DNA from: Bryobacterales bacterium
Lineage (GTDB): Bacteria > Acidobacteriota > Terriglobia > Bryobacterales > UBA6623
NCBI GenBank assembly: GCA_965248105.1
Contig: CBDFIK010000006.1
Location: forward strand, 259,761-323,760
Reading direction: 5' to 3'
Length of the DNA stretch: 64,000 nt
The notes beneath the pieces are model-generated. The model was not told the DNA's origin, did not search any database, and saw only the letters and a program-made list of their open reading frames with translations. How positions within the stretch are numbered: position 1 is the first letter of the stretch; every line of letters starts with the position of its first letter. Below, piece by piece: positions 49,380 through 49,714 of the stretch. A program made the position numbers and the translations under genes.

Positions 49380-49714
49380 TTTCGCTCGGGGACTCACCAG
49401 CGGCGACGAGGAATTGCCATCACGAGTGCCTGCCGGGCCTCGCCTATTGTAGGGACTGCGCGACGGAGCCTTGGCTCCCGAGGCGCCAGCGTGTTTGTTT
49501 CGAGGCCGGCAGAGAGGGATCCAAACTGAAACTTCTGCGACGGCGAGCTGGCCGGCTCGCCCGAGGCAGCACATGGATGTCTGGTCGCCAGGGACCCCAC
49601 AACGGATTCCACACGGCTCGTCTCGAGGCCTTCGCCGCCGCACCAACGACACGCTTCCTCCAGGAGGCTCGGGATCTCTGCATCGATCCCTTGACTTTTA
49701 CCTATCATGGATGT
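49380..49714 (+). ncRNA. putative bridge RNA/seekRNA encoded downstream of the IS110 recombinase; boundaries unknown
   Basis: Segments 49449-49456, 49491-49498, 49527-49532 and 49572-49580 match the reconstructed target and donor junctions and flank hairpins. Confidence 0.7.

What the first reader, a model, noticed from the sequence alone, without database searches (positions are those of the whole stretch)
49440..49590. Readable bridge/seekRNA: four guide segments match target and donor of the IS110 element
Seen: reconstructed target GTGTTT-GT-CCCTAC and donor junction CATGGAT-GT-TTCA. Downstream of the recombinase, GTAGGGAC (49449-49456) is the reverse complement of GT+right target. Then comes hairpin GGAGC-CTTG-GCTCC (49465-49478), then GTGTTTGT (49491-49498), equal to left target+core (the match extends to 11 nt with the left junction). 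Next, TGAAAC (49527-49532) is the reverse complement of GT+right donor, followed by hairpin GGCGAGC/GCTCGCC (49542-49561) and CATGGATGT (49572-49580), equal to left donor+core. The two loops are similar in size, both ordered bottom-strand guide, hairpin, top-strand guide. Known: IS110/IS1111 recombinases use such bispecific RNAs, encoded 3' of the gene in IS1111 types; IS621 uses a CT core with left-then-right guide order. Inference: a new, probably programmable RNA-guided recombinase with a GT core and reversed guide order. The class is known; novelty of this member needs a database check.
Basis: partly seen in the sequence, partly recalled or inferred. Interest (0 to 1): 0.9.

Follow-up and report, generated by a model that had tools for sequence, protein, structure and literature searches.

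The report
Bridge (seek) RNA of an IS1111-type element
The region encodes the guide RNA of a small jumping gene of the IS110/IS1111 family.

Summary
Window 48253-49848 is an IS110-family element of the IS1111 type: DEDD/Ser transposase 48351-49379, subterminal inverted repeats, short left end and long 3' non-coding region. It sits in a REP-like palindrome.

Positions 49429-49585 encode a two-loop RNA. The target loop holds GTAGGGAC (49449-56) and GTGTTTGT (49491-98). The donor loop holds TGAAAC (49527-32) and CATGGATGT (49572-80).

- In 21 relatives (transposase 61-89% identical) the stems keep pairing through compensatory changes.
- The two target guides covary with the right and left flanks (0 of 20,000 permutations on each side).
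- The 5' donor guide covaries with the third base of the left end.

The "reversed" guide order is the published hallmark of IS1111 seekRNAs, so it is not new. No expression or activity data exist.

It starts at the DNA that encodes the 3' donor guide and ends at the right end. An orthologous copy lacks it. Similar arrays anchored on the right end recur in relatives, and a 2026 preprint has already described the pattern.

Verdict: real, correctly interpreted, a new member of a known kind.

The parts
48233..48252 (+). Left half of the target. It is a REP-like palindrome: arm GGACAAACA (48233-41), loop GGAG, arm TGTTTGT (48246-52). The arm is completed by CC at 49849-50 on the far side of the element. 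GTGTTT (48245-50) is the left target and GT (48251-52) is the core.
   Evidence: Independent copies share 24-47 nt of this left flank. Uninterrupted sites GGACAAACARGAGTGTTTGT|CCCTACT.. occur in metagenome contigs L104 and L106.
48253..48350 (+). Left end (98 nt) up to the transposase start. It begins TTCA (the right-donor half-site). The subterminal inverted repeat ATGGATAGG is at 48257-48265. The ribosome-binding site AGGAGG is at 48336-41.
   Evidence: Similarity among about 60 relatives starts exactly at TTCAATG. The inverted repeat covaries with the right end (ATAGGT/ACCTAT, ATAAGT/ACTTAT, ATGAGT/ACTCAT).
48351..49379 (+). Transposase/recombinase, 342 aa, DEDD (RuvC-like) domain plus Transposase_20 domain.
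   Evidence: Pfam PF01548 and PF02371. NCBIfam NF033542 scores 179.8 bits against a cutoff of 140. D, E, D, D and the catalytic Ser align with IS621. Homologues are 341-344 aa.
49429..49513 (+). Target-binding stem-loop (85 nt). The basal stem is 49429-42 with 49501-13 and the upper stem is 49459-66 with 49477-85, with its apical hairpin at 49465-78. The internal loop carries the 5' guide GTAGGGAC (49449-56), which pairs with the top strand of GT+CCCTAC, and the 3' guide GTGTTTGT (49491-98), which pairs with the bottom strand of GTGTTT+GT.
   Evidence: RNAalifold and pair counts. Guide-flank covariation. The closest relative L081 has the 3' guide GGGGACTGT and the left flank CGGGGACTGT.
49519..49585 (+). 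Donor-binding loop. The short basal stem is 49519-21 with 49583-85 and the upper stem is 49535-44 with 49559-69. The 5' guide TGAAAC (49527-32) pairs with the top strand of GT+TTCA (the left end). The 3' guide CATGGATGT (49572-80) is identical to the last 9 nt of the right end.
   Evidence: The 5' guide covaries with left-end base 3: TGAA/TTCA, TCAA/TTGA, TTAA/TTAA.
49572..49839 (+). Two perfect 134-bp tandem units (49572-49705 and 49706-49839). Each unit starts just after a ..CATGGATGT site and ends with the right-end sequence ..CCTATCATGGATGT.
   Evidence: The orthologous insertion L088 has one unit.
49805..49848 (+). Right end. Conserved hairpin GGGATCTCTGCATCGATCCC at 49805-24 (also at 49671-90). 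TTGACT at 49825-30 is a probable -35 of a circle-junction promoter. Subterminal inverted repeat CCTATCAT at 49835-42. Terminal CATGGAT plus core GT at 49847-48.
   Evidence: TTGAC lies at a fixed distance from the end in all relatives. The promoter is an inference: after circularisation TGtTTCAAT lies 18 nt downstream.
49849..49854 (+). Right target half CCCTAC.

Best explanation
Window 49429-49585 encodes the bridge RNA (seekRNA) of an IS1111-type IS110-family insertion sequence. The element spans 48253-49848 and would be 1,462 bp without the 134-bp duplication.

The RNA is read on the + strand, either as the 3' part of the transposase transcript or processed from it. It folds into two stem-loops, each with an internal loop.

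- First loop (target). Its 5' strand pairs with the top strand of core+right target (GT-CCCTAC). Its 3' strand pairs with the bottom strand of left target+core (GTGTTT-GT).
- Second loop (donor). In the same way it reads the junction of the circularised element: the 5' strand reads GT-TTCA (the left end) and the 3' strand reads CATGGAT-GT (the right end).
- Reaction. The DEDD/Ser recombinase bound to this RNA exchanges strands at the GT core. This inserts the circle into a REP-like palindrome ...GGACAAACA-GGAG-TGTTTGT|CCCTAC without a target duplication.

Shown here: the element boundaries, the RNA structure, the guide-target and guide-donor covariation, and the empty target sites. Inferred from published work on IS621, ISEc11 and other members: that the RNA is made, that it binds the protein, and the chemistry.
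For: Protein:
- Pfam DEDD_Tnp_IS110 and Transposase_20.
- NCBIfam 'IS110 family RNA-guided transposase' above its cutoff.
- Catalytic D/E/D/D/S align with IS621.

Boundaries:
- About 60 related copies diverge exactly at ..TGT|TTCAATG and ..CATGGATGT|CCC.

RNA structure:
- Alignment of 21 distinct relatives.
- Consensus fold with 18 of 31 pairs showing compensatory changes.
- 95.8% of cells paired against 30-41% when partners are slid; 19 of 29 pairs changed on both sides; 0 of 500 shuffles reach this.
- Many G-U pairs fit the + strand only.

Target guides:
- Identity to the element's own flank against permuted flanks. Right side: 79.6 against 56.9 (sd 4.1). Left side: 86.6 against 54.9 (sd 5.2). 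0 of 20,000 permutations on each side.
- Still significant within each of two compositional groups: 17-357 of 20,000.
- Identity falls from 52% and 58% to 22-31% when the register is shifted by 1-3 nt.
- Examples: L058 guide predicts CCCTATTT and the flank is CCCTATTT. L079 guide predicts CTTCGTTG and the flank is CTTGGTGG. L081 3' guide is GGGGACTGT and the flank is GGGGACTGT.

Donor guides:
- TGAA/TCAA/TTAA track left ends TTCA/TTGA/TTAA.

Empty sites:
- L104 and L106 read ...GTGTTTGT|CCCTACT.

Chance:
- Frequencies of the four strings are 0.0004-0.024 each.

Literature:
- IS1111 seekRNA lies 3' of tnp with the top-strand match 5' of the bottom-strand match (PMC11187229).
- Bridge RNAs are predicted in the right end of IS1111 elements (PMC11208160).
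Against: - There is no transcript, RNA-protein binding or transposition data for this element or its clade.
- No sigma-70-like promoter was found for the RNA, and its 5' and 3' ends are unknown.
- The basal stem of the donor loop has only 3 pairs. A conserved hairpin just 3' of it (GGTC..GACC, 49583-49598) competes with it, so the donor loop could be part of a multi-loop, as reported for many IS1111 elements.
- The right end and the 3' donor guide are invariant across the clade, so that guide has no covariation support.
- In most relatives the 5' donor guide reads ..AATC. This mismatches the second core base, whereas the window has a perfect AAAC.
- In the multi-copy Bryobacterales family many insertions match the guides only at CTGT|CCCC. 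Specificity may therefore be loose.
Confidence: 0.9

Rival explanations
1. The four matches are chance or low-complexity coincidences in a GC-rich non-coding region.
For: Only one copy of the element lies in the window. One of the strings is only 6 nt long.
Against: Shuffle frequencies are 0.0004-0.024 per string. The same positions covary with flanks and ends in relatives from several phyla. The stems show compensatory changes.
Confidence: 0.01
2. The internal copies of end and flank sequences act at the DNA level, for example as extra transposase-binding or pseudo-end sites, or as relics of tandem duplication. They would not be RNA guides.
For: CATGGATGT at 49572 is the boundary of a tandem repeat. 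Arrays in relatives also use internal ..TGT|C sites as boundaries, so these sites are used as DNA substrates.
Against: - DNA sites inside the element cannot explain why two loop strands track the flanking host sequence, one of them as a reverse complement.
- Compensatory G-C to A-U changes and frequent G-U pairs indicate selection on an RNA fold on the + strand.
- Single-unit relatives keep the guide.
- The DNA-level use is best seen as a side effect of the guide DNA mimicking the right end.
Confidence: 0.05
3. The element is a decayed, immobile copy, and the RNA region is a fossil that no longer works.
For: The 134-bp duplication creates a second internal right end. No other copy lies in the 64-kb window. 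The neighbouring kinase gene is frameshifted, so the assembly or the genome carries lesions.
Against: The transposase frame is intact and full length, with catalytic residues conserved. Copies at least 98% identical lie at four or more different loci in related metagenomes. All guides match the ends and the target perfectly.
Confidence: 0.1

Closest known systems
IS1111-group seekRNA / bridge RNA elements (ISEc11, ISPa11, ISKpn4, ISPst6; Siddiquee et al. 2024, PMC11187229; Durrant et al. 2024, PMC11208160)
   Same: - DEDD transposase of 330-350 aa.
- Subterminal inverted repeats, short left end and long non-coding region 3' of the gene.
- A target stem-loop of about 85 nt. The published short seekRNAs are 82-96 nt.
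- The top-strand-pairing guide lies 5' of the bottom-strand-pairing guide.
- REP-like target and no target duplication.
   Different: - The transposase is only about 30% identical to the best named relative found (IS1328).
- The C-terminal motif reads GL-A----SA instead of GL-P----S/TG.
- The donor guides lie in what looks like a simple second internal loop. A multi-loop was noted for many IS1111 elements.
- The hosts are Acidobacteriota, Desulfobacterota and other environmental phyla.
IS621 / ISCro4 bridge recombinases (IS110 group; PDB 8WT6, 9T56; PMC11208158)
   Same: - Two-loop RNA in which each loop reads both strands of a DNA on either side of a 2-nt core.
- The same catalytic residues.
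- A probable hybrid promoter across the circle junction.
   Different: - The RNA is encoded 3' of the gene rather than 5'.
- The guide order within each loop is reversed.
- The core is GT, not CT.
- Protein similarity is weak (E = 7.8e-9, mostly C-terminal).
- No handshake-type extension of the top-strand guides could be seen.
Tandem non-coding repeat units next to IS110 transposase genes, with boundaries that keep left-donor-only matches (preprint 10.64898/2026.08.14.744561), and half-match recombination (preprint 10.64898/2026.08.31.748434)
   Same: Arrays in the window and in 13 or more related copies all end at the right end (the left-donor half-site). They repeat a non-coding 3' segment.
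   Different: In this clade the commonest unit starts at the DNA that encodes the 3' donor guide itself. The other units start after internal ..TGT|C sites that resemble the clade's target consensus.

Membership tests
IS110 family (DEDD RNA-guided transposases) | N-terminal DEDD (RuvC-like) domain plus C-terminal Transposase_20 domain with a catalytic Ser | tested here: met
   PF01548 (E = 6e-13) and PF02371 (E = 3e-17). NF033542 scores 179.8 bits, above the 140 cutoff. D, E, D, D and Ser align with IS621 D11/E60/D102/D105/S241.
IS110 family (DEDD RNA-guided transposases) | Insertion without target-site duplication, with a short core shared by donor and target | tested here: met
   Empty sites L104 and L106 read GTGTTTGT|CCCTAC. 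The occupied site reads GTGTTTGT|IS..GT|CCCTAC. Only the GT core appears on both sides.
IS1111 group | Subterminal inverted repeats of 7-17 bp | tested here: met
   ATGGATAGG (48257-65) against CCTATCAT (49835-42). They lie 4 and 6 nt from the termini and covary across the clade.
IS1111 group | Long non-coding region and guide RNA downstream of the transposase gene, with a short left end | tested here: met
   The left end is 98 nt. The distance from the stop codon to the right end is 335 nt with one unit, against 316-408 nt in relatives.
IS1111 group | Transposase of 330-350 aa with the C-terminal motif GL-P----S(t)G | tested here: inconclusive
   The length of 342 aa fits. The motif reads GLCAGQKQSAG, that is GL-A----SA: Ser is kept, Pro becomes Ala and Gly becomes Ala. 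No phylogeny with ISfinder members was run.
Bridge RNA / seekRNA | A structured RNA with an internal loop whose two strands pair with opposite strands of the target on either side of the core | tested here: met
   Structure. Covariation of both loop strands with the flanks.
Bridge RNA / seekRNA | A second loop that reads the donor (the RE-LE junction) | tested here: met
   The 5' strand covaries with left-end base 3. The 3' strand matches the last 8-9 nt of the right end in all 21 relatives. The exact loop topology is not settled.
Bridge RNA / seekRNA | The RNA is expressed, binds the transposase and is required for circle formation and insertion | not testable with these tools
   No expression or biochemical data are available. 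No promoter was found by a simple scan.
Rfam curated RNA family | Match to a curated covariance model | tested here: not met
   No Rfam 15 family matches 49380-49850 even at E <= 10. There are no gathering-level hits anywhere in the window.

The most novel reading that the evidence does not exclude
The DNA that encodes the 3' donor guide necessarily copies the element's own right end (CATGGAT-GT). It may therefore act as a built-in half-site that the recombinase uses. If so, elements of this clade recurrently amplify their right-end segment: 134 bp x2 here and up to 142 bp x10.5 in a relative. Other arrays start at internal TGT|C pseudo-targets. Self-recognition of guide-coding DNA would then be an intrinsic cost, or a source of structural variation, in RNA-guided insertion sequences. 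The arrays would be a natural record of half-match recombination in a lineage only about 30% identical to any characterised member.
Probability: 0.35. Interest if true: 0.5.

Novelty: new member of a known kind. Interest (0 to 1): 0.3.

Why it matters
It shows that a bridge/seekRNA can be read correctly from raw sequence. It also adds a well-documented clade to the catalogue of RNA-guided recombinases: a GT core, a compact two-loop RNA of about 160 nt, a 342-aa enzyme, and hosts in Acidobacteriota, Desulfobacterota, Nitrospirota and Planctomycetota.

The natural guide-flank table from dozens of insertions gives a first picture of which positions matter. These are about 6 nt to the left of the core and 3-8 nt to the right. 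This is the information needed before trying to reprogram such an enzyme.

No IS1111-type complex is in the PDB copy searched. A small, well-behaved member with clear guides could therefore be useful for structural work.

None of this changes the current understanding of the family.

Tried and rejected
- Rfam gave no family for the RNA at E <= 10 or at gathering level. The only hit was a sub-threshold Acido-Lenti-1 match upstream of the element.
- An exact look-up of the 360-aa annotated protein found nothing on record.
- The first regular expression for the 5' target guide picked wrong sites. It was replaced by a search anchored on the basal stem.
- A search for further copies, or for an intact target, in the 64-kb window found none.
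- The metagenome pattern scan gave 24 hits, about the number I estimate by chance for a degenerate 20-mer. Only L104, L106, L101 and L109 are relevant.
- Handshake-type extensions of the top-strand guides, as in IS621, were looked for by eye. The bases following GGGAC and TGAAAC (U..) pair with neither substrate. Only the bottom-strand guides could extend by 1-2 nt (TT after GTGTTTGT, C after CATGGATGT), and these positions are invariant, so the idea cannot be tested.
- The idea that the shared left flank of 24-47 nt means the element's true left end lies further upstream was rejected. The hairpin loops differ between copies, the similarity decays gradually, the 89% relative L081 shares nothing left of TGT, and empty sites exist.
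- The promoter scan found no sigma-70-type site.
- The L085 direct repeat does not fit the GT rule, because its upstream copy is preceded by GAT rather than GT. It remains unexplained.

Full report
**1. What is in the window**

Reading 47400-50400 and listing ORFs shows one gene on the + strand. The annotated start is at 48297, but 48351 is the likely true start. It gives MKGLHYIGLD, lies 9 nt after AGGAGG, and yields 342 aa like the 341-344-aa homologues. The gene ends at 49379.

- The protein carries Pfam DEDD_Tnp_IS110 and Transposase_20.
- It scores 179.8 bits on NCBIfam NF033542, 'IS110 family RNA-guided transposase', against a cutoff of 140.
- The only solved relatives are IS621 (E = 7.8e-9) and ISCro4. 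In the alignment the DEDD residues and the catalytic Ser are conserved.
- The best named relative in the plasmid collection is IS1328, at 30.6% identity.

**2. The observation**

The four guide strings occur in Markov shuffles of the non-coding region at frequencies 0.001, 0.0006, 0.024 and 0.0004.

The proposed 3' donor guide is the first 9 nt of the repeat unit.

**3. Related elements and boundaries**

A scan of one genome per species returned 80 loci with transposases 61-73% identical. About 45 copies come from one Bryobacterales genome. Others come from other Acidobacteriota, Geobacter and other Desulfobacterota, Nitrospiria and Ca. Scalindua. Look-ups by exact protein gave an 89% relative (L081) and eight near-identical copies (L082-L089).

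- In all of them, similarity between copies begins at ..TGT|TTCAATG and ends at ..TTGACnnnnACyTATCATGGATGT|. In the window the element is therefore 48253-49848.
- The ends carry subterminal inverted repeats (ATGGATAGG and CCTATCAT). These covary across the clade: ATAGGT/ACCTAT, ATAAGT/ACTTAT, ATGAGT/ACTCAT.
- The distance from the stop codon to the right end is 316-408 nt in relatives. It is 335 nt in the window once one repeat unit is removed.

**4. The RNA**

The whole region from about 50 nt after the stop codon to the 3' donor guide is alignable across the clade. RNAalifold gives two stem-loops.

Pair counts on 21 distinct sequences:
- 95.8% of cells are paired, against 30-41% when partners are slid by 1-3 columns.
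- 19 of 29 pairs changed on both sides.
- 0 of 500 shuffles reach the observed values.
- G-U pairs are frequent, which fits transcription of the + strand.

In window coordinates:

| Feature | Target loop | Donor loop |
|---|---|---|
| Basal stem | 49429-42 with 49501-13 | 49519-21 with 49583-85 (weak) |
| Upper stem | 49459-66 with 49477-85 | 49535-44 with 49559-69 |
| 5' guide | 49449-56 | 49527-32 |
| 3' guide | 49491-98 | 49572-80 |

A single-sequence fold is only marginally better than shuffles (z = -1.6). The structure therefore rests on the comparative evidence.

**5. Guides covary with what they should read**

For each locus I extracted the two target-loop strands and the real flanks.

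- With one value per guide type, identity to the element's own right flank is 79.6 of 112, against 56.9 (sd 4.1) after permuting flanks among guide types.
- For the left flank it is 86.6 of 136, against 54.9 (sd 5.2).
- 0 of 20,000 permutations reach the observed value on either side. The result also holds when the conserved CCC and CT positions are left out.
- Permuting only within the Acidobacteriota-like group or only within the Desulfobacterota-like group still gives 17-357 of 20,000.
- Shifting the register by 1-3 nt drops identity from 52% and 58% to 22-31%.

Clear cases:
- The L058 guide predicts CCCTATTT, and the flank is CCCTATTT.
- L079 has GAAGAC instead of GGGGAC, and its flank is CTTGGT instead of CCCC.
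- L072 and L074 match 8 of 8 on the left.
- L081 (89% identical protein) has the 3' guide GGGGACTGT and the left flank CGGGGACTGT, where the window has GTGTTTGT in both places. This is a natural retargeting.

In the donor loop, the 5' strand reads TGAA, TCAA or TTAA where the left end begins TTCA, TTGA or TTAA. The 3' strand and the right end are invariant.

Per-position identities suggest recognition of about 6 nt to the left of the core and 3-8 nt to the right.

**6. The target**

Independent near-identical copies share 24-47 nt of left flank but little right flank. This made me ask whether the true left end lies further upstream. It does not.

The shared sequence is a REP-like palindrome, GGACAAACA-GGAG-TGTTTGT|CC, next to a GC-rich hairpin whose loop differs between copies. 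A pattern scan of metagenomes found uninterrupted sites that read GGACAAACARGAGTGTTTGT|CCCTACT.. (L104, L106). It also found related ones (L101, which has several such palindromes, and L109). No other intact target or copy lies in the window.

**7. Comparison with what is known**

- Siddiquee et al. (PMC11187229) showed that IS1111 elements encode an 82-96-nt seekRNA 3' of tnp. In it the top-strand match is 5' of the bottom-strand match, which is the reverse of IS110.
- In IS621 the 5' guide reads the bottom strand on the left and the 3' guide reads the top strand on the right (PMC11208158).
- Durrant et al. predicted bridge RNAs in the right end of 93% of ISfinder IS1111 elements. They noted that donor guides often lie in a multi-loop.

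The window's RNA has the IS1111 order, and its target stem-loop is 85 nt. The class, the location and the 'reversed' order are therefore known. What is new is the member: a clade about 30% identical to named elements, with a GT core (TGT is shared by donor and target).

**8. The tandem repeat and related arrays (side finding)**

L088 is the same insertion as the window, with identical flanks on both sides, but it has a single 134-bp unit. The duplication is therefore recent.

Arrays that end at the right end recur in relatives:
- 142 bp x2 to x10.5
- 330 bp x2-3
- 446 bp x2
- 614 bp x2-3
- 645 bp x2
- 699 bp x4

Every unit ends with ..CATGGATGT. Every unit starts just after an internal site ending in GT, mostly ..TGT|C. 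For the 134- and 142-bp units that site is the DNA encoding the 3' donor guide.

The simplest reading is recombination between the right junction and an internal half-site or pseudo-target on a sister copy. An alternative is insertion of a circle into such a site, followed by homologous loss of the duplicated 5' part.

Two 2026 preprints describe the same logic. One reports tandem non-coding units whose boundaries keep left-donor-only matches (10.64898/2026.08.14.744561). The other reports half-match recombination (10.64898/2026.08.31.748434). L083 and L085 are flanked by 33- and 70-bp direct repeats of their left flank. The L085 case does not fit the GT rule.

**9. Limits**

- There is no evidence of expression or activity.
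- No promoter was found for the RNA, and its ends are unknown.
- The topology of the donor loop is not settled.
- The junction promoter is inferred from conservation only. It would comprise TTGACT at 49825-30, then 18 nt, then TGtTTCAAT across the circle junction.

**10. Verdict**

This is a new member of a known kind, of moderate to low interest. It comes with a useful natural data set on guide-target rules and a clear example of right-end tandem amplification.

Noticed in passing
window 49572-49849; also L003, L005, L006, L019, L024, L032, L033, L038, L041, L047, L054, L056: Tandem arrays of a 3' segment, with periods of 134, 142, 330, 446, 614, 645 and 699 bp and up to 10.5 copies. They always end at the right end. 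They always start after an internal ..GT site, mostly TGT|C. For the shortest units that site is the DNA encoding the 3' donor guide. The orthologous insertion L088 has a single unit.
   Followed up: partly
window 48004-48063 (+); a similar copy near 47325-47382 on the opposite strand: A near-threshold match to Rfam Acido-Lenti-1 RNA (35.5 bits against a gathering score of 37, E = 8e-6) lies about 190 nt upstream of the insertion. A second similar sequence was seen through cross-matches. This points to an Acidobacteriota host and a repeat-rich intergenic region.
   Followed up: no
window 48210-48252 plus 49849-49851; L101, L104, L106: The target is a REP-like unit: a GC hairpin (GAGCCGCC-loop-GGCGGCT) followed by the palindrome GGACAAACA-nnnn-TGTTTGTCC. 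L101 carries several such palindromes in a row. What this repeat does in the host is unknown.
   Followed up: partly
window 44395-47279, break near 45090-45110: A Ser/Thr kinase fused to TolB/PD40-like repeats is split into two frames. ..DFGLAKR reads to a stop in one frame, and ..LLTKTETLLGTPVYMSPEQ continues in another. This is a frameshift, so either a pseudogene or an assembly error. The relative L084 has an intact 874-aa gene.
   Followed up: partly
L083 1338-1370 and 2919-2951; L085 1387-1456 and 2919-2988: Two near-identical copies of the element are flanked by direct repeats of their own left flank, of 33 and 70 bp. In L085 the second repeat is followed by an empty-looking target half (TGTTTGT|TCCTAC). 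L083 fits the TGT|C rule. L085 does not, because its upstream copy is preceded by GAT.
   Followed up: partly
L084, L087 and L088 compared with the window: The same left context as the window is joined to a different right flank in L084 (CCCTACATTC..). That right flank is joined to another left context in L087. Part of the window's right flank (49902-49944) lies inverted upstream of the element in L082, L087 and L089. These look like rearrangements between copies of the element.
   Followed up: no
L081 3858-4870: The right end of the closest relative (89% identical protein) is cut off by another insertion sequence (DDE_Tnp_1_4 transposase on the opposite strand). Its right junction could therefore not be read.
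   Followed up: yes
L040 3640-3700: One Bryobacterales copy has an internal duplication inside the target loop. The sequence ..CCGTATCTCTGT is joined directly to TGGGGAC.., as if the 3' guide and the CTGT that precedes the 5' guide had recombined.
   Followed up: no
window 49671-49690 and 49805-49824: A conserved hairpin lies immediately upstream of the TTGAC of the right end. It has compensatory changes in relatives (GGATGACTGCGTCCATCC, GGGAAATCTCCGTTTTCCCC) and was flagged as terminator-like. It might end the guide RNA or shield the junction promoter.
   Followed up: no
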